Below are positions 1 to 8,900 of a stretch of 64,000 nt of DNA, piece after piece (position 1 is the stretch's first letter; every line of letters begins with the position of its first letter). The notes below the pieces were generated by a model that was not told the origin of the DNA, searched no databases, and worked only from the letters and a program-made list of their open reading frames with translations. The DNA is from Scenedesmus sp. PABB004. Lineage: Eukaryota. The position numbers and the translations under genes are program-made. The stretch is from assembly GCA_014905635.1 (NCBI GenBank), contig JABVCE010000024.1:434001-498000 (forward strand). The letters are read 5' to 3'.

Positions 1-3000
1 CTACACCGTGCAGTTCTTCCAGCAGGCGAGCCGCCCAGGGGCTTGGGCGCTGCACGCGGGGGAGCGCGCCCGCGGCGGGCGGGCGGGCGGCGCGCACGCG
101 CTCGGCGGCGCCGCCGCGCGGCGGCGCCGGGCGCGCAGGCGCGGGCGGCGGCCGAGCCGCGCGCCGCCCGCCGCGGCGCGGCAGGTCCGCTCCGGCAGCA
201 ACAACTCGGTCGAGGTCGTGCCGCTGACGGAGGTGATCAACGTGAAGCTCGCCAACAAGCTCCAGATCCGCATGGACCCGGCGCTGCACGACGGCACGAT
301 GTACTTTGCGCAGGCGCGTGCGGCGCCCGCGCGCCGCGGCCGGCCGGACAGCGGCGAGCGGCCGTCGCCCACGCGCCGCCGCGCTCGCGCGCCCTGCCGC
401 CCCGACCAGGTGACGGCCACCAACGAGGCCGGCCTCACCACGGTGGTGCAGGGCCTGCCCATCGCGGTCGACCGCTCGCTGTGAGGCGCCGCGCGGCGCC
501 GTGGCGCGGGGGCGGCCGCCCCTGCCCCGCTGACGCGCGCAACGCGCGCTCGCCCCGCTCACGCGTGCCCGCCGCCGCCGCAGCGAGGGCGCTGTGCCGG
601 CGGGCAGGACCGCGCTGATCGTGGTGCTCTGCAGCGTGGGCTGCCTCGCCATCGGCGCGCTGCTCTCGGTGCTCGCGATGCGCGGCGCGGTGCACCAGCA
701 GAAGCAGCGCGAGAAGGAGCGCCAGCAGGTGGGCGCCGCCGCCTGGCCTCCGCGCCTCGCGCGCCCGCCGCCGCCGGGCGCCGTCGGCCGCTGAGCCCCT
801 GCTGCGCCCCGCGTGCTGCCCCGCGTGCTGCGCCCCGCGGTGCGTTACGCCGCGCCCTGCAGGAGGCGAAGCAGCTCAAGGCCCTGATGTACGCCCTCGT
901 CTCGCACAGCGACGGCGGCCCCGGCGGCCCCGGCGGCAGCGTCGTCGCGCCGCCCGGCGCCGCGCGGCTCGACGCGAGCAGCAAGGAGGTCGCGTTTGTC
1001 TTCACCGACATAGAGAGCTCGACCGAGCTCAGCAACCAGGACCCCGAGGCGTTCAAGCAGGCACGCGCCTAGGCGGCGGCGGCGCGGCGGCGGCGGCAGC
1101 TTGTGGCGGCGGCGGTGGCGCGGCAGCCGCGCAGGGGGTGGCCGCGCGGCCGCCGCCGCCCCGCCGACCCGCCCCGCCGACGCGCCCCCGCCCGCGCTCG
1201 CGCGCAGCTGCAGGAGGTGCACGACCAGATCATGCGCGAGGGCATCGCGAAGCACCACGGCTACGAGATCATCACCGAGGGCGACTCGTTCCAGGCGCGC
1301 GCCGCGCCCGGGTCCTGCGCCGCGCCCCTGTCGCGCGCGGGCAGTGCCCCTGGCGCCGCCCCCCCCCCCCCCCGCGCGCGCGCGCGGCCGGCGGTGGGGC
1401 GCGCGCCGACGCCGGCCGGCGCTGCGCGCCGCGGCCGCGCGCCAGGTCGCGTTTGCGAGCTGCCAGTCGGCGCTGGCCTTCTGCATGGAGACGCAGTATC
1501 GACTGCTGGAGCAGACCTGGTCCAAGGACGTGCTGCGCCTCAACGCCTGCAAGGCCATCCGAGGTGCGCGGCGCGGTGCAGCGGCGGCAGGCGCCGGCGC
1601 GCGCGCTCCCGGCCGCCCGGCGGGGCGCGGCGCACCGGCCGACCGCGCCGCGCCGCCTCGACGCGCGTCGCCGCAGGCCCCGACGGCGACGTGCTGTTTG
1701 CGGGGCCGCGCGTGCGCATGGGCATCCACTGGGCGCGCGAGGGCACGGTCGCGGTGCGGCTGCACAACCTCACGCGCCACAGGGTCTACGCGGGGCCGGC
1801 GGTGCAGATCGCGCTGGACGTGAGCGAGGCGGCCAACGGCGGCCAGATCGTGCTCACCGAGGTGCGCCGCGCGTCCACACCCGACCGCGCCAACGCCTGC
1901 CCGCGCCGGGGCTGCCGCCGCCCCTGGCCGGGGCTGCCGCCGCCCACACGCCGGACCCGCGCCGCCCGCCCGCGCTCGCTGCCCCGGCCCCGCCAGGACG
2001 CGGTGGCCAAGCTGGCTGAGAACATGGCGATGGCCCTCTTCCCCGTCATACGCCTCTCCGGCCTCTTCCAGCTGCCGAGCGTGCCGTGCCCCGTCTTCCT
2101 GTTCAGTGTGACCGAGGTCGTCGGCAAGCCGCTGCGCCGCGCGGGCCACTTCCGCGGGCTGCGCAAGATACGGCAGGTCTGGCCGGGCGCGGGCGACAAG
2201 GTGCGCCCCGGCGACGGCGCCGCGCCTGCGCGTGGCGCGCGCGGGGAGAGCGCAGCGCAGCGCGGCCGCGCGCCGCGCCGCGTTGTGCTCCGCGCCCACA
2301 CGCCGCCGCCGCTCCCCACCCTCCGCGCTCCGCGTCGCGGCTTCACCCCACAGCTGCAGCTGCACGCGGCGCTCGAGTACAACATCAACCTCCCGCCCCT
2401 GCCCAACGCGTCGGGCTCGCTCGCGTTTGTCTGCCTCCGCCTCACGACCTACCCCAAGGCGCGGCCGTGCGACCTGCCGCCGCACCTGCAGGAGCGCCTG
2501 GAGGAGGTGTTTGCGGTGCAGGCGCAGCAGTTCAAGGGCTACCTCTTCCAGACGCACGACAACGCGGCGCGCGAGGTGCCCGCCCGCGCACGCCGCCGCC
2601 GCTGCCTCGCCGTGTGCATGCTGCCGCCGCGCACGAGGCGCAGGCGCCGTGCTCCGCCCCACGCGCGCGCGCCGCTCTCCCTTCTCGCCGCGCGCAGGGC
2701 ATCTGGACGGTCGCGTTCCAGGCCGCCATGGACGCGATGCGCTTTGCGCACGCGGCGCAGATGCTGCTCATGCACACGCAGTGGCCCGCCTCGGCCGCCG
2801 ACTTCTGCGGCGCCGCCGTGCCCAGCCCCGACGGACGCTGGCTGTTCCAGGGCCCGCGCGTCGCGATGGCGATCCACGAATCGCCAGACTACTTCGTGAG
2901 TGCCGCGCCGCGCCTCCGGGCGCGCCTCCGGGCGCGCGCCGCCGGGGCTGCAGGCCATGCCTGCCTGGCGCGCACGTCGCACGCGCATGGCGCATGCGCA

Positions 3001-5893
3001 CACGCGCCGCGCCGCTGCGCCGCGCCGCGCCGCCGCGCCGCCGCCCGCAGGTGAGCGAGGACGAGAGCGTGCTGCCGGCGGGGCCGCGCAAGGTCATGTG
3101 CTTCGCAGGGCCCGCCGTCACGCTGCCGCTCGTGCTCACCTACGCGGGCCGCGGCGGCCAGGTGGGCGGCGCGGCGCGCGCGCCCGGGGCCGCCGCGCCG
3201 CCGCCGCGTGCGGCACGGCGCATGCCCGGCCCGACGCGCGCGCACGTGCGGCGCGGCGCCGCCACCGCCCTGCGCGCTGCCGCCGCTGCTCGCCAGGTCA
3301 TCCTGAGCGAGCGCGCGTGGGACTCGGTCAAGCCGGTCATCACGCAGCACCCCGGCGCGGTCACGGTGATCAGCCTCGGCACGCACATCGTGTCGGACGA
3401 CTTCCCCCTGCCCATGCTGCTCATGGAGGCACGCGGCGTGGCGCGCGCAGCGAGGGGCACCTGCTCCCGCCCGCGACCGCGCCTGGGCCCGAGCCCCGGC
3501 GCCGCGCCTGGGCCCTCGCGCCCCGGCGCCGCGCGCGAGCCGCCGCGCGAGCCGCCGCATGCGCGTCCGTGCTGCCGCTGCGGCGCAGGTGATGCCCAAC
3601 CTGCTCGCGCGCCGCGCGTTCAACCCGGTCATGACCAAGCGCCAGGTGGAGATGGGCTACCGCGAGGCGCCCGACCCGCGCGACCCCATGACGATCGTGT
3701 TCGTCAAGGTGGGCGGCCGGGGCTGCCGCGCAAGGCTCGGCCCTCTTGCGGCCGAGCCCCCGCGGCGTCACCGGCGGCGGCGGCGGCGAGGGCGCCCGCG
3801 TGGCGCGCGGCCCCACGCCGCGCAACCGCGGCCCCTGCGCGCCTGCGGCGCGTGCACAGGTGTCCAAGCCGTCCGAGGTGGTCGCGGCGGAGAAGGGCAA
3901 CCCGCTCGCGGACGGGCCGCTGCGGGACGAGGACATCTCGCTGACTATCCAGGCCTACCAGGTGCGGCGGCGCTCGCCGCTTGACGCTCGGCCTCCAGCA
4001 TCACGGTCTGGGGCTGCCGCGCGCCCAGCAGCGCGCCACGCCGCGCCGCGCACGCCCACACCGCGCCGCGCGCTGCACGCGTCCGCAAGATGTCTGTGTC
4101 GATGTACACCGCGACCGCGCGCAAGCTGCTGCGCCTGTACCGCGGCTACGAGTGCAAGGAGCCGGAGCCCGGCAAGTTCACGATCGTCTTCCAGTGAGCG
4201 CCGCGGCCGCACGCGCCGCGGAGCCGGCGCCGCCGCCGCGCGCAGGAGGGCGCCCGCGCCGCGCCGCGCCGCGCCGCCGGCCGCGCCGCGCCGCCGCCCG
4301 CGCGCCGCCCGGCCGCGCGCCTCAGCGCTCCCGCCGCGCCGCGGCAGGGACCTCGCGGACGCAGTGCGCTGGGCGTGCCACGTGCAGGAGGAGCTGATGT
4401 ACCTTGCCTGGCCCAGCGCGCTGCTCAGCATGGCCGAGTGCGCCGAGGTGCGCGGCCGGCAGCGGCGCCGGCGGCGGCGCCGCGCGCGCGTGCTCTGCGC
4501 CGGCCCGCTCACGCCGCGGGGCGCCGCCGGCGCGGCAGGTCCGCGAGCCGGGCAGCGGGCAGCTGCTCTGGCGCGGCCTGCGCGTGCGCATGGGCATGGC
4601 GCACGGCATGGTGAGCAACAAGAAGCCACTCAACACCGGCCGCGCCGACTACTTTGGCGTGCTCCCCAACGCGGCGGCGCGCGTGTCGGCGCTCGCGGCG
4701 CCGGGGCAGGTGCGTGCCAGCGCGCCGCAGCCCGGCCAGGAGCGCCGCAGCGGGGCGACGCCCACGACGTGCGCCGGCCGGCGCGCCCCCCCGCCGCCGG
4801 CGGCCGGCCGCAGGTGCTGGTCGAGGCGGCCTGCCCGCCCGTGGCCGACGACGGGCGCGGCCTGCTGCTGCAGCCCGACGCCGAGACGCGGCTGGCCATG
4901 CTCTACGTCCCCGGCCAGGCGCCCGACCGGCGCAAGGGCGCGCCGTTGCCGCCGGCGCCCGGCGGTGGCGACGGCGGCGCGGACGGCGGCGGCGGCGGCT
5001 GCGCCGACCCGCGGCAGGAGCTGCACATCAGCGCGGTCGGCTACTACCTGCTCAGGTGGGTGGCTGTGTGTGGTTGTTTGGCGTGCTTTGCCTGCTTTCT
5101 CATGCCTCGCCCTCACGGCCCGCCGCCGCCGCCGCCGCCCCTCGCGGCGCCCGCCCGCCCGCCAGGGGCCTCGACAACCCGCGGCTGCTCTACGCGGCGG
5201 CCGGCGCGCGCGTGCGCGGGCGCGACCTGCGCATCAACGGCGACATGTGGGCGCCGCCCTCGGGCCTGCTCGGCCCGGGCGGCCTCAACGCCAGCTTTGC
5301 CAGCAGCAGCGCCAGCCTGCGCCGCAACCTCAACTCGTGGGTCGAGAAGACCCGCAGCTCCTTCCGCAGCCGCCGCGGCGCGACGCCCTCGCCCAGCGGC
5401 AGCCCGTCGCCGCGCAAGGCGGCAATGCCGCTGGCCGACGGCGGCAGCCCGGGCCCGCGGCCGGCCGGCCCCGGCGGCGCGAGGTCGCACCTCGGCCCGG
5501 GCGGCGCGCTCGCGGGCGGCGCGTTTGGCGGCTGCGGCGCCGGCGCCGGCGCGCCGGGCGCTGGCGGCATCCCCGCGGGCGTGCAGTCCGGCGGCGGCGG
5601 CGGCAGCAGCTTCCGGGATGCCGCCGACTCGCCGGGCTTCTACAGCCTCTGCAGCGACTCGCTCACCGCACACCGCAGCCCCTTCCTGCTCAACACCAGC
5701 GCGGCGCGGCTGCAGGCGCTGCTGCCGCGCGCGACGAGCAACGCGTCCACCGCCGGCTGCACCGACGCGAGCGCGGCGGCGGGCAGCGACGGCAGCCCCG
5801 GCGAGGGCCCCGCGAGCCGGCGCAGCCGCTCGTGGCTGACCGGCTCGCGCGGGCAGCTGCTGCCGCGGGCGCAGCAGGAGGCGCTGCAGGTGG

Positions 5894-5940
<47 letters not shown>

Positions 5941-8900
5941 GCGCGGCGGCGGCGGCGGCGGCGGGCGCGGGCGCGGCGGCGGCGGGCGCGGGCGCGGCGG
6001 CGGCGGCGCCGCAGGGGTGCTCGCCCTCCGCGCCCGGTCCTGCGCCGCCGGCTCACGCCAAGCGCCGCTGCCGCGCGCGCGCGCGCCCCGCAGGAGTTGG
6101 ACCCCCTGGCGGCGCGCAGCGCGCTCTCGGAGCTGCTGAGCCGGCAGGCGGTCGTGGAGGCGCTGCACGCGCGGCTCGGCTGCGACGCGGACGCCGCCAG
6201 CGGGGCCGCGGGCGCGGGCGCGGAGGCCGCGGCCGAGCTCGCCGGCCTCGCGCCGCCCCCGGCGTGCGGCGGTGGCGCGCGGCTGCGCTTTGCCTCCACG
6301 CCCAACTTGCCCGAGATGGGCAGCCAGGGTCACGGCGGCGGCGTGCTGGCCGACCCGCTGCTGGGCGAGCTGCGGCTGCCGGCCATCCAGACGACGCCGC
6401 ACGCGCCTGCTGGTGTGCGCGGGCAGCGCGCAGCGCGCCACGGCGCGGTTGCCGGGGAGGGGGAGGGCGGCTGCGGGAGGGGGGCTGCGCGCCGCGGCAC
6501 GCCGACGCCGGCCGCTCACCCCACGCTCACCCTCGCCGTCCGCAGCGGCCTGCCTCTGGCGTGCCAACACGCCCAGCAGCGTCGACGTCTCGCCCGTCAG
6601 CTACACGGACAGCAGCCCGCTGGCCGCCGGGCGCGGCGGCGCCGGCGGCGCGCTGGACCCGCGCGCGGCGTACCTGCAGCGCCACCAGCAGCTGCTGAGC
6701 ATGCGCGGCAGCGGCGGCGGCGGCGGCAGCGCCGACGCGAGCACCGACCCCAGCACCTCGGGCGGGGGCGCCGCCGAGCCGGGCAAGGCGCCCAGCCACA
6801 GCGAGCTGCTCGCGCACCAGCAGCAGGCGCAGGCCAACATGGCCGCCATGGTGTATGACAGGCGCGCCGGCGGCGGCGGCAGCGACGTCTCTGTGAGCTC
6901 GAGCCTGGAGGGTAGCGGCATGCGGGGCTTCCTGGCCGGCATGGCGAGCACCTTCTCCGGGGGTGAGCACTGCGGGCGCGGCGCGCGTGGCACGCCGCCT
7001 GGGCTGACGCGGCGCCTCCCACCGCCGCCCTCCGCCCACTCCCTCCCCTCGCTCGCCGTGCAGGCGCGGCGCCGCCGGAGCAGCGGACCCTGAACGTCTT
7101 CATACGCCCCGCCCGGGCGCTGCTGGACCAGGTCCGGCGGCGCAGCAGCGCTGCCGCGAGCGCCGCGGGCGCGCGCTCGGGCGGCGGCGCGCCGCCGGCG
7201 GCGGGCGGCGACGCCGACAGCGACGCCGGCGCGGACCGGCAGCTCGCGGCGGCGCGGAGCATACATGGCATGCTTGCCAGCAGCACTGGCACCAGCCTGC
7301 CGCAGACGCCGGTCAGCGCGAACGGCTCGTGGGTGAGCGCCGGGGTCGCAAGCGCCGCCAGCGGCCACGCTGGGCCGCCCGCCCGCTGCCGCGCTGCCCG
7401 CCTGAGCCGCCGCCCTCCGCCACGCCGCCGCCCGGCCGTCGCAGGCGCCCGGCGCGCAGCACAGCGGCGCGCTGGCCAGCCCCGGCACCGTGTTTGCCAG
7501 CGACCTGGCGCAGGTGTGGGTCAACCACCGGCACAACAGCGCCACGTCAGCGCAGGCGCTGGCGGGCCCGTGGGGCCAGCAGCCGCACGCGAGGCCGCTC
7601 AGCGGCGCCCCGAGCCCCGCGGCCGGCAGCCCCGTGCACCCCAGCAGCAGCCGGCCGGGCAGCTACACCTACGCCGCCAGCAGCTACAGCCCCACCCACT
7701 GCACCGCGGGGCCCTTTGGCGGCGTGTGGGCGCAGCAGGCGGCCGCCGCGGCGCTGCGGGGCCCGCAGCACGGCGACCTCGCCTCCCGCGAGGAGGAGCC
7801 CTCGCTCAACGGCGGCACGGTCGTCCTGTCCGCGGCGGCTGCCGCGGCGGCCGCGGCGGACCAGCTGCTGATGGAGCTCAGCCTCTCTGGCGGCGGCTGC
7901 GGCAGCGGCAGCGGCGGCGGCGGCCCCGCCGCGCCCGCGGCGCTCGATCGCTCGGGCTCGCCCTGCCCCGCGGCCCCGCGCAGCAGCCTCGGCGGCGGCA
8001 GCGCGGCCGCCGCCGCTGCGGTGAGCCAGGCGATGTGGGCGAGCTACGAGGCGGGGCGGCTGGACCAGGCGCTGCACCAGGAGGTCGCGGCGCTGCAGCA
8101 CGAGTGGTCGGCCGGCGGCGCGGCGGGGCCGCCCGAGCCGCTCGCGTCGGGCAGCATCACGTTCTCGGTGCTCGGCGCGGCGCCCAGCGCGGCGCCGCGG
8201 CTGCAGCCAGAGCCGCCGCAACAGCAGCGCTACCAGGCCGCGCTGGCCGCCGCGCGCGCGGCGCAGGCGGCGGTCGCAGGCGTCGCGTCGCCCGCGGTGC
8301 TGGCGCAGCTGGCGGCGCGCGGCGACGTCGCGGCGCTCGCCGCGCGCGCGGCGGCGGCGGGCGGCGCCCCCTTCACGCTGCCCGGCCACGCGCTCGCGCG
8401 CGGCGCCGCATTCGGCCTCACCGAGCAGGAGGCGCTGGCAGCGGAGGCGTCGGCGGGCCACGCGGCCGCGCTGCACGCGGCCGCGTTGCCGGCCGGTCAG
8501 GCGCTGGAGCAGCAGGCGTTGCTGGCGTCGATCAACAGCTGCGGCTTTGACACCGAGGGCGCCTCGGACGCCAGCAGCTGCGCCGACGACCGCAGCGACC
8601 GCAGCGACCGCGGCGGTGCGCCCCCGCGCGCCGGCGGCGCGGAACGCGCGCCCGCGCCGTCGCTCGCGGAGCAGCTGCGCCTCGCGCGCGACCGCGGCGG
8701 CGCCGTCTACAGCGCGGCCGAGTACGGCGCGTTCCTGGCGGAGCAGCAGCGCGAGCGCGAGGCGCGCTCAATCGGTGGCATGATCGCGGTGCAGCAGGAG
8801 GGCGCGCTCACCGCCGCGGCCGCGGCGGCGGCGGGCGTCGCGCCCGGACCGGGCCAGCCCGCGGACGGCCCCGTCCGGCAGCAGGGCGGCGGGCCGGCGC

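What the first reader, a model, noticed from the sequence alone, without database searches (positions are those of the whole stretch)
980..4840. Receptor cyclase with three cyclase domains and catalytic residues split between domains 1 and 3
Seen: domain 1 keeps both metal-binding Asps (FTDIESST, EGDSF) but lacks the N-xxx-R motif (has VQIALD). Domain 2 lacks both sets (FVCLRL; VTLPLV). Domain 3 lacks the Asps (FVKVSK; EPGKF) but has NAAAR plus Lys (YECKE) and Asp (RADYFG) at the ATP-selecting positions. Known: class III active sites form between a C1-type domain (Asps) and a C2-type domain (K, D, N, R). Inference: an intramolecular pseudo-heterodimeric adenylate cyclase with a third, catalytically dead domain that could be allosteric or a dimerisation partner, behind one TM helix and an FN3-like ectodomain. 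That would be an unusual algal cAMP receptor architecture.
Basis: partly seen in the sequence, partly recalled or inferred. Interest (0 to 1): 0.72.

Follow-up and report, generated by a model that had tools for sequence, protein, structure and literature searches.

The report
Green-algal receptor cyclase, three cyclase domains
A spliced green-algal gene encodes a single-pass membrane receptor with three tandem cyclase domains, in which the first and third together carry one full set of adenylate cyclase catalytic residues and the middle one carries none.

Summary
On the + strand, a gene with at least 19 introns runs in from beyond the window's 5' end. It encodes the end of an FN3 ectodomain, one TM helix and three tandem class III cyclase homology domains (D1, D2, D3).

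- **D1** keeps both metal Asps and lacks K, D, N and R.
- **D3** has Lys at both Asp positions and keeps K, D, N and R.
- **D2** lacks all six.

This is more than chance. In 32 proteins with D1-D2-D3 order, D1's Asps and D3's K/D/N/R are nearly always kept where aligned, and D2's six positions vary freely. The architecture occurs across Chlorophyta: Coccomyxa, Ostreobium, Tetraselmis, Chloropicon, Gonium and Flechtneria.

Transcripts from relatives support a single gene. A Flechtneria transcript is colinear across 13 of my junctions, and a Tetraselmis transcript ORF holds all three domains.

D1 and D3 group with the two halves of two-domain protist relatives that show the same split, so D2 looks like an added domain.

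Most likely D1 and D3 form one composite ATP site, as C1/C2 do in animal cyclases, and D2 is a non-catalytic structural or regulatory module. Not shown: which domains touch, whether pairing is within one chain, and cAMP synthesis.

Verdict: a new variant of a known kind.

The parts
1..480 (+). Last part of the ectodomain (end of an FN3 domain), in exons 1-25, 185-313 and 410-480. The gene's 5' part, with LRRs and a first FN3 in orthologues, lies outside the window.
   Evidence: Translation. It is colinear with Flechtneria transcripts P0001 and P0180, whose Pfam fn3 hit (26.3 bits, cut-off 25) covers this stretch.
584..728 (+). Exon with the single TM helix (about 612-680; 23 uncharged residues) followed by a basic Lys/Arg/Gln-rich stretch.
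   Evidence: Translation. tblastn of P0180 gives 75% identity over 573-728.
863..2200 (+). Juxtamembrane helix plus cyclase domain D1 (C1-like), in exons 863-1060, 1208-1294, 1446-1563, 1677-1861 and 1997-2200. Asp1 is at 1007-1009 and Asp2 at 1283-1285. Gln replaces Asn at 1805-1807 and Asp replaces Arg at 1817-1819.
   Evidence: Exon model. PF00211 scores 40.9 bits on the 77%-identical P0001. The model of the Coccomyxa D1 matches 1fx4 at Z 26.4, rmsd 2.5, 210 aligned. Residue table.
2360..3428 (+). Cyclase-homology domain D2, with all six catalytic positions replaced (R, Q, I, C, T, V). Exons 2360-2575, 2698-2895, 3051-3161 and 3297-3428.
   Evidence: hhalign D1 against D2 gives 98.4%, E 7e-15. 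The exons are colinear with P0180. No Pfam hit on single exons. Residue table.
3589..5250 (+). Conserved linker plus cyclase domain D3 (C2-like), in exons 3589-3708, 3860-3961, 4090-4193, 4348-4447, 4539-4709, 4814-5055 and 5166 onward. Lys is at 4156-4158, Asp at 4647-4649, Asn at 4668-4670 and Arg at 4680-4682. Lys sits at both metal-Asp positions.
   Evidence: Window exon 4539-4709 matches GRESAG4.1 at E 3e-5 and PF00211 at 17.9 bits, below the cut-off on its own. The exons are colinear with Coccomyxa, Gonium and Ostreobium proteins. Residue table.
5250..6858 (+). Low-complexity Ser/Ala/Gly/Pro/Arg-rich C-terminal tail. The frame stays open to 6858, but further introns and the true stop were not defined.
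   Evidence: ORF 4615-6858. Coccomyxa orthologues have a tail of about 500 aa after D3.

Best explanation
The gene encodes a single-pass receptor-type adenylate cyclase of a very GC-rich chlorophyte. Its cytoplasmic part is three trypanosome-type class III cyclase homology domains in a row.

D1 supplies the two metal-binding Asps and the phosphate loop. D3 supplies the adenine-selecting Lys and Asp and the transition-state Asn and Arg. A head-to-tail D1:D3 pair would therefore form one competent ATP site and one degenerate pseudo-site, as C1:C2 do in animal membrane cyclases and soluble adenylyl cyclase.

D2 keeps the fold but none of the catalytic residues. It acts as a non-catalytic structural or regulatory module inserted between the two working halves. 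Ligand binding to the LRR/FN3 ectodomain is presumed to control cAMP synthesis.

Shown: the domain architecture, the residue pattern, its conservation, and single-mRNA status in relatives.

Inferred: D1:D3 contact (most likely within one chain), ATP specificity, catalysis, and the role of D2.
For: 1. The spliced model is open and colinear with orthologues. It is 76.8% identical over 642 columns to the Flechtneria transcript P0180 and 38.9% over 941 columns to Coccomyxa P0007.

2. In the 32 D1-D2-D3 proteins:
- D1 Asp1 is D in 26 of the 27 aligned, and Asp2 is D in 30 of 30.
- D3 has K in 26 of 31, D in 29 of 30, N in 28 of 29 and R in 29 of 29.
- D3 never has Asp at either metal position (0 of 23 and 0 of 31).
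- D1 has N in 2 of 32 and R in 1 of 32.
- D2 has no conserved residue at any of the six positions.

3. GRESAG4.3 aligns to D1's first half and D3's second half of the orthologue, which are the functional halves. The window's own D3 exon aligns with D, N and R matched.

4. 31 two-domain relatives show the same split: D1 has the Asps and D3 has D, N and R. In a FastTree of 139 domains, three-domain D1 forms one group (support 99), D2 lies on one side of a branch (94), and D3 falls with two-domain D3 (96).

5. With 29 aligned sequences, AlphaFold2 gives the D1-D2-D3 region of the orthologue mean pLDDT 88.8 and pTM 0.87, so a compact and confidently packed three-domain body. All three domains have the same order of strands and helices.

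6. D2 is under constraint. Mean pairwise identity is 36%, against 47% for D1 and 41% for D3, in 13 members.

The roles of the six residues come from the class III cyclase literature as I recall it, not from a paper read here.
Against: - No contact map or coordinates could be read, so D1:D3 pairing is not shown.
- Structure searches aligned D1+D2 of the model to the two-domain chains of AC9 and a Pseudomonas protein only at rmsd 23. Foldseek's two-domain matches had TM 0.25-0.30. This says consecutive domains are not arranged like C1:C2. No D1+D3 match to a two-domain chain was reported either.
- The structure is of the Coccomyxa orthologue (39% identical), not the window's protein.
- No RNA evidence from this organism.
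- Five of 31 family members have Gln instead of Lys in D3.
- My D1/D2/D3 profiles were built from only 3 or 4 sequences each, so the domain labels of distant hits are rough.
- The domain tree is FastTree only, and where D2 attaches is unresolved.
Confidence: 0.7

Rival explanations
1. The composite site is formed across chains. In a ligand-induced receptor dimer, D1 of one chain pairs with D3 of the other, so activity depends on dimerisation. D2 serves as a spacer or as a D2:D2 dimer contact.
For: The residue pattern fits pairing in trans as well as in cis. A conserved juxtamembrane helix precedes D1. As I recall, trypanosome receptor cyclases and receptor guanylate cyclases act as dimers.
Against: The single-chain model is compact with pTM 0.87. 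Two-domain relatives have D1-D3 linkers with a median of about 55 residues, which suits pairing in cis.
Confidence: 0.2
2. The protein is a non-catalytic pseudo-cyclase. It would bind ATP or another ligand at the D1:D3 interface and signal by conformation only.
For: Degenerate tandem cyclase-like ATP-binding proteins exist; PDB 6yii appeared in the listing. Two of the three domains are individually dead.
Against: All six catalytic residues are kept in the complementary arrangement across the family. That is hard to explain without catalysis.
Confidence: 0.07
3. The apparent single gene is an artefact of my exon model, and the domains belong to two or three separate genes.
For: No RNA run of this organism was listed. 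Five donors are GC rather than GT. The 3' end is undefined.
Against: One open frame crosses all junctions. P0180 has no indels at 13 junctions. The Tetraselmis transcriptome ORF P0017 holds D1, D2 and D3. The linkers between domains are short and conserved.
Confidence: 0.03

Closest known systems
Trypanosoma brucei receptor-type adenylate cyclases GRESAG4.1/4.3 (PDB 1fx2, 1fx4)
   Same: They are the closest solved cyclase by sequence (E 1e-15) and by fold (Z 26.4). Both are single-pass receptors. They share the FTDIESST loop, the insert before the RVRxGIH strand and the RxF tail after the domain.
   Different: GRESAG4 has one complete catalytic domain per chain, which acts as a homodimer (recalled), and a different ectodomain. 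Here there are three domains, none complete on its own.
Pseudo-heterodimeric C1/C2 cyclases (animal membrane adenylyl cyclases, soluble adenylyl cyclase)
   Same: Metal Asps lie on one domain and K, D, N and R on the other, in the same chain. This predicts one active site and one degenerate site.
   Different: Those enzymes have two domains. Animal membrane cyclases have 12 TM helices (recalled). Sequence and fold similarity is lower (1cs4 Z 18.9, 4clf Z 16.5). No third dead domain sits between the halves.
Two-domain D1-D3 relatives in diverse protists (transcripts of Fabomonas, Gymnodinium, Entosiphon; metagenome proteins)
   Same: They have the same domain subtype and the same split of residues (31 proteins; names). 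Their D3 groups with the three-domain D3.
   Different: They have no D2, and their N-terminal parts differ or are unknown.
Database orthologues: Coccomyxa subellipsoidea COCSUDRAFT_67530, C. elongata g10493, Ostreobium CAD7695706, Gonium KXZ50125, Chloropicon primus 'adenylate cyclase' QDZ18491, Tetraselmis and Flechtneria transcripts
   Same: They share the D1-D2-D3 order and residue pattern. Coccomyxa and Flechtneria also have LRRNT/LRR plus FN3 before the TM helix.
   Different: They carry only generic names. I found no paper that describes the three-domain arrangement.

Membership tests
Class III nucleotidyl cyclase (PF00211 cyclase homology domain) | Sequence and fold match to the cyclase homology domain | tested here: met
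   D1: PF00211 scores 40.9 bits (cut-off 21.9) on P0001, and the model matches 1fx4 at Z 26.4. D3: the best PF00211 stretch of P0007 is 1096-1189, and the window exon matches 1fx2 at E 3e-5. D2: found only through D1 (hhalign 98.4%) and by the same order of secondary-structure elements.
Class III nucleotidyl cyclase (PF00211 cyclase homology domain) | Two metal-binding Asp residues | tested here: met
   Present in D1 only (window 1007-1009 and 1283-1285). They are D in 26 of 27 and 30 of 30 aligned family members. Absent from D2 and D3.
Class III nucleotidyl cyclase (PF00211 cyclase homology domain) | Transition-state Asn and Arg, and base-selecting Lys and Asp (adenylate type) | tested here: met
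   Present in D3 only. In the family K is 26 of 31, D 29 of 30, N 28 of 29 and R 29 of 29. They align to the same residues of GRESAG4.
Class III nucleotidyl cyclase (PF00211 cyclase homology domain) | Head-to-tail dimer of two domains forming the site; cNMP synthesis | not testable with these tools
   Model coordinates are not readable. The complex job was not folded.
Pseudo-heterodimeric C1/C2 cyclases | Complementary loss of catalytic residues in two domains of one chain | tested here: met
   D1 against D3.
Pseudo-heterodimeric C1/C2 cyclases | Exactly two cyclase domains, adjacent and arranged like C1:C2 | tested here: not met
   There are three domains. D1+D2 of the model aligns to the two-domain chain of AC9 only at rmsd 23.1.
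Trypanosomatid receptor adenylate cyclase (GRESAG4/ESAG4 type) | One TM helix followed by a single, complete catalytic domain | tested here: not met
   There is one TM helix, but three domains and none has a full residue set.

The most novel reading that the evidence does not exclude
D2 is a built-in decoy partner. In the resting receptor it occupies the dimer face of D1 or D3, giving a dead pair. Ligand binding to the LRR/FN3 ectodomain releases it so that D1 and D3 close into the only competent pair. This would be a three-domain partner-swap switch, not described for any cyclase in the searches I ran.
Probability: 0.15. Interest if true: 0.75.

Novelty: new variant of a known kind. Interest (0 to 1): 0.5.

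Why it matters
cAMP signalling in green algae is poorly charted, and land-plant-style LRR receptors are known mainly as kinases. Here a plant-type LRR/FN3 ectodomain (seen in the orthologues) is wired directly to a cyclase. The catalytic machinery is split over the first and third of three domains, and this has been conserved since before the classes of Chlorophyta diverged.

It offers a natural test of what a retained dead cyclase domain does. It also provides a compact candidate receptor-to-cAMP module that can be tested by complementation in an E. coli strain lacking adenylate cyclase.

Tried and rejected
- **Whole genome:** none is held for this window, so the 5' part of the gene could not be fetched.
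- **RNA runs:** none was listed for window:150-5600.
- **Pfam on raw stop-to-stop frames and on single exons:** this gave only one sub-threshold PF00211 hit, on the D3 exon. One search failed because my frames were wrong, and I corrected them.
- **Window exon 863-1060 against PDB:** nothing relevant, because only its last 20 residues are cyclase.
- **AlphaFold2 without an alignment:** failed, with pLDDT 36.
- **A 61-row alignment:** failed internally. A 29-row one worked.
- **Structure searches with the good model:** these listed almost only single-domain matches to D1. They could not tell which domains pair. No D1+D3 match to a two-domain chain was listed.
- **Complex prediction (D1, D2 and D3 as three chains, D3 as partner):** the queue was full six times, then the job was accepted and returned 'not folded' under a tool rule.
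- **Charge covariation:** between D1's acidic residue at the Arg position and D3's Lys at the Asp2 position, my hand count gives 13/4 against 9/5. There is no clear association, so I dropped the idea.
- **D2's origin (from D1 or from D3):** the tree puts D2 at the midpoint root, so this is unresolved.
- **Earlier findings of this scan:** none.
- **Paper searches:** searches found no description of this architecture. Subscription journals are not covered.
Full report
**Setting.** The window is 68-82% G+C throughout. No whole genome is held for it. Stop-free frames occur on every strand at this composition, so ORF lists mean little and the gene had to be built from splice sites and homology.

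**Gene model.** Reading the sequence, I placed exons at 1-25, 185-313, 410-480, 584-728, 863-1060, 1208-1294, 1446-1563, 1677-1861, 1997-2200, 2360-2575, 2698-2895, 3051-3161, 3297-3428, 3589-3708, 3860-3961, 4090-4193, 4348-4447, 4539-4709, 4814-5055 and 5166 onward.
- Every intron ends in AG.
- Fourteen donors are GT. Five are GC, after 25, 313, 1060, 1294 and 3428.
- The joined frame from 185 to 5400 is open for 956 codons.
- The gene enters from beyond the window's 5' end.
- Its frame stays open to 6858, but I did not define the 3' end.

**Support for the model.**
- A word-based protein search with the D1 exon 1679-1861 found a transcriptome protein of Flechtneria rotunda (Scenedesmaceae) and two Coccomyxa proteins.
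- The longer Flechtneria isoform P0180 is 76.8% identical to the model over 642 columns. It shows no indel at the 13 junctions it spans, including four of the GC-donor junctions.
- The five junctions further 3' are colinear with Coccomyxa, Gonium and Ostreobium proteins. The only difference is a one-residue gap in Gonium near one junction.
- tblastn of these proteins finds the same exon blocks and no second copy in the window.
- No RNA run of this organism was listed.

**Architecture.**
- The window holds the end of an FN3 domain, a 23-residue uncharged helix at about 612-680 followed by a basic stretch, and a conserved short helix.
- Three similar domains follow.
- In the orthologues, Pfam finds LRRNT_2, LRR and fn3 before the helix, and PF00211 after it.
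- Their LRRs match plant LRR receptor kinases in PDB.

**Are all three cyclase domains?**
- The closest solved cyclases are T. brucei GRESAG4.3 and 4.1.
- HMMER aligns GRESAG4.3 to the first half of D1 and the second half of D3 of the Coccomyxa protein.
- The window's own exon 4539-4709 aligns to GRESAG4.1 at E 3e-5.
- D2 is not found by Pfam or PDB sequence search. Profile comparison gives D1-D2 98.4% (E 7e-15, 163 columns), D1-D3 98.3% and D2-D3 91%.

**Structure.**
- With a 29-sequence alignment, AlphaFold2 models the 745-residue D1-D2-D3 region of Coccomyxa elongata at mean pLDDT 88.8 and pTM 0.87. The same strand and helix order appears three times.
- A single-sequence run had failed.
- D1 of the model matches 1fx4 at Z 26.4, rmsd 2.5, 210 aligned.

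**Catalytic residues.** Their roles are as I recall them from the class III cyclase literature.

| Domain | Asp1 | Lys | Asp2 | Asp (base) | Asn | Arg |
|---|---|---|---|---|---|---|
| D1 | D | I | D | V | Q | D |
| D2 | R | Q | I | C | T | V |
| D3 | K | K | K | D | N | R |

D3 also has Arg at the last phosphate-binding Lys position.

**Is the pattern more than chance?** A full HMMER scan of 1.84 billion representatives with the Coccomyxa region gave 9251 hits at E up to 0.001 and 240 at E up to 1e-30. I scored the best 150, the earlier proteins and the window model with rough D1, D2 and D3 profiles. Of these 164 proteins, 32 have the order D1-D2-D3. In those 32:
- D1's Asps are D in 26 of 27 and 30 of 30 aligned.
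- D3's K, D, N and R are kept in 26 of 31, 29 of 30, 28 of 29 and 29 of 29.
- D3 never has Asp at a metal position.
- D1 has N twice and R once.
- D2 shows no conserved residue at any of the six positions.
- D2 is still constrained. Mean pairwise identity is 36%, against 47% for D1 and 41% for D3, in 13 members.

**Distribution.** Named members come from Ostreobium, Tetraselmis (a transcriptome ORF with all three domains), Chloropicon, Gonium, Coccomyxa and Flechtneria. That covers several classes of Chlorophyta.

**Evolutionary context.**
- Thirty-one proteins with just D1 and D3 show the same complementary split. Their linkers have a median of about 55 residues.
- The named ones are from an ancyromonad, a dinoflagellate and a euglenid.
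- In a FastTree of 139 domains, three-domain D1 is one group (99), D2 lies on one side of a branch (94), and D3 lies with two-domain D3 (96).
- Where D2 attaches is unresolved.
- The simplest reading is an old two-domain C1/C2-like enzyme that gained a third domain between its halves, once, early in green algae.
- Proteins with four or five such domains exist in an oomycete and in diplonemids.

**Mechanism.** Only a D1:D3 pair can assemble a full site.
- D1:D1, D3:D3 and any pair with D2 lack one half.
- Lys and Asp at the base-selecting positions indicate ATP.
- I therefore favour one composite adenylate cyclase site plus one degenerate pseudo-site, with D2 as a non-catalytic module (confidence 0.7).
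- Whether pairing is within a chain (about 0.5) or across a receptor dimer (0.2) is open.

**What I could not do.**
- I could not read contacts from the model.
- Structure searches listed mostly D1-only matches.
- Where two-domain chains were aligned, they took D1+D2 at rmsd 23 or gave TM 0.25-0.30. So consecutive domains are not arranged like C1:C2, but D1:D3 was not shown either.
- The complex prediction was not folded under a tool rule.

**Comparison and novelty.**
- The domain subtype is that of trypanosome receptor cyclases.
- The catalytic logic is that of C1/C2 pseudo-heterodimers.
- The ectodomain is plant-LRR-like.
- The interposed dead domain and this combination of parts were not described in any paper my seven searches reached. 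I read only passages of two papers, and neither was relevant.
- The proteins themselves are in public databases under generic names.
- I rate it a new variant of a known kind, of moderate interest.

Noticed in passing
window 26, 314, 1061, 1295, 3429 (intron starts): Five of the gene's 19 introns start with GC instead of GT. Four of these five junctions are confirmed by the colinear Flechtneria transcript. This is far above the roughly 1% I recall as usual in eukaryotes, and it may go with the extreme G+C content.
   Followed up: partly
window 1-64000: G+C is 68-82% in every 2-kb bin, so long stop-free frames occur on both strands everywhere. ORF lists are uninformative here.
   Followed up: no
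window about 5850-6050: A GC-rich triplet repeat reads as a long poly-Arg run in the gene's frame and as poly-Ala or poly-Gly in the other frames. It may be low-complexity coding sequence or an unrecognised intron in the C-terminal tail.
   Followed up: no
window 2100-2200, 3589-3680, 5200-5260; alignment A1: Each of the three domains is followed by a similar short tail (Arg-x-Phe, then Pro). The D2-D3 linker carries a strongly conserved Glu-Pro-Gly-Tyr/Phe-Arg-Asp motif, with Pro invariant and Gly nearly so in 29 sequences. GRESAG4 ends with a similar Arg-Asn-Phe tail, so the duplicated unit seems to include the tail.
   Followed up: partly
P0012 (Coccomyxa subellipsoidea COCSUDRAFT_67530), residues about 590-605 and 1103-1116: Relative to C. 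elongata, the deposited protein has two short insertions inside conserved cyclase strands, one of them splitting the Asp-bearing motif of D3. They look like unspliced intron pieces in the database gene model.
   Followed up: no
P0024 (Lagenidium giganteum), P0027 (Diplonema japonicum), P0030 (Namystynia karyoxenos): Proteins with four or five tandem cyclase homology domains of this subtype exist in an oomycete and in diplonemids. I did not examine their residue patterns.
   Followed up: no
window 863-915: A conserved juxtamembrane helix (Lys-Gln-Leu-Lys-x-Leu-Met in Flechtneria, Coccomyxa and the window) sits between the TM helix and D1. It may carry the signal from the ectodomain.
   Followed up: no
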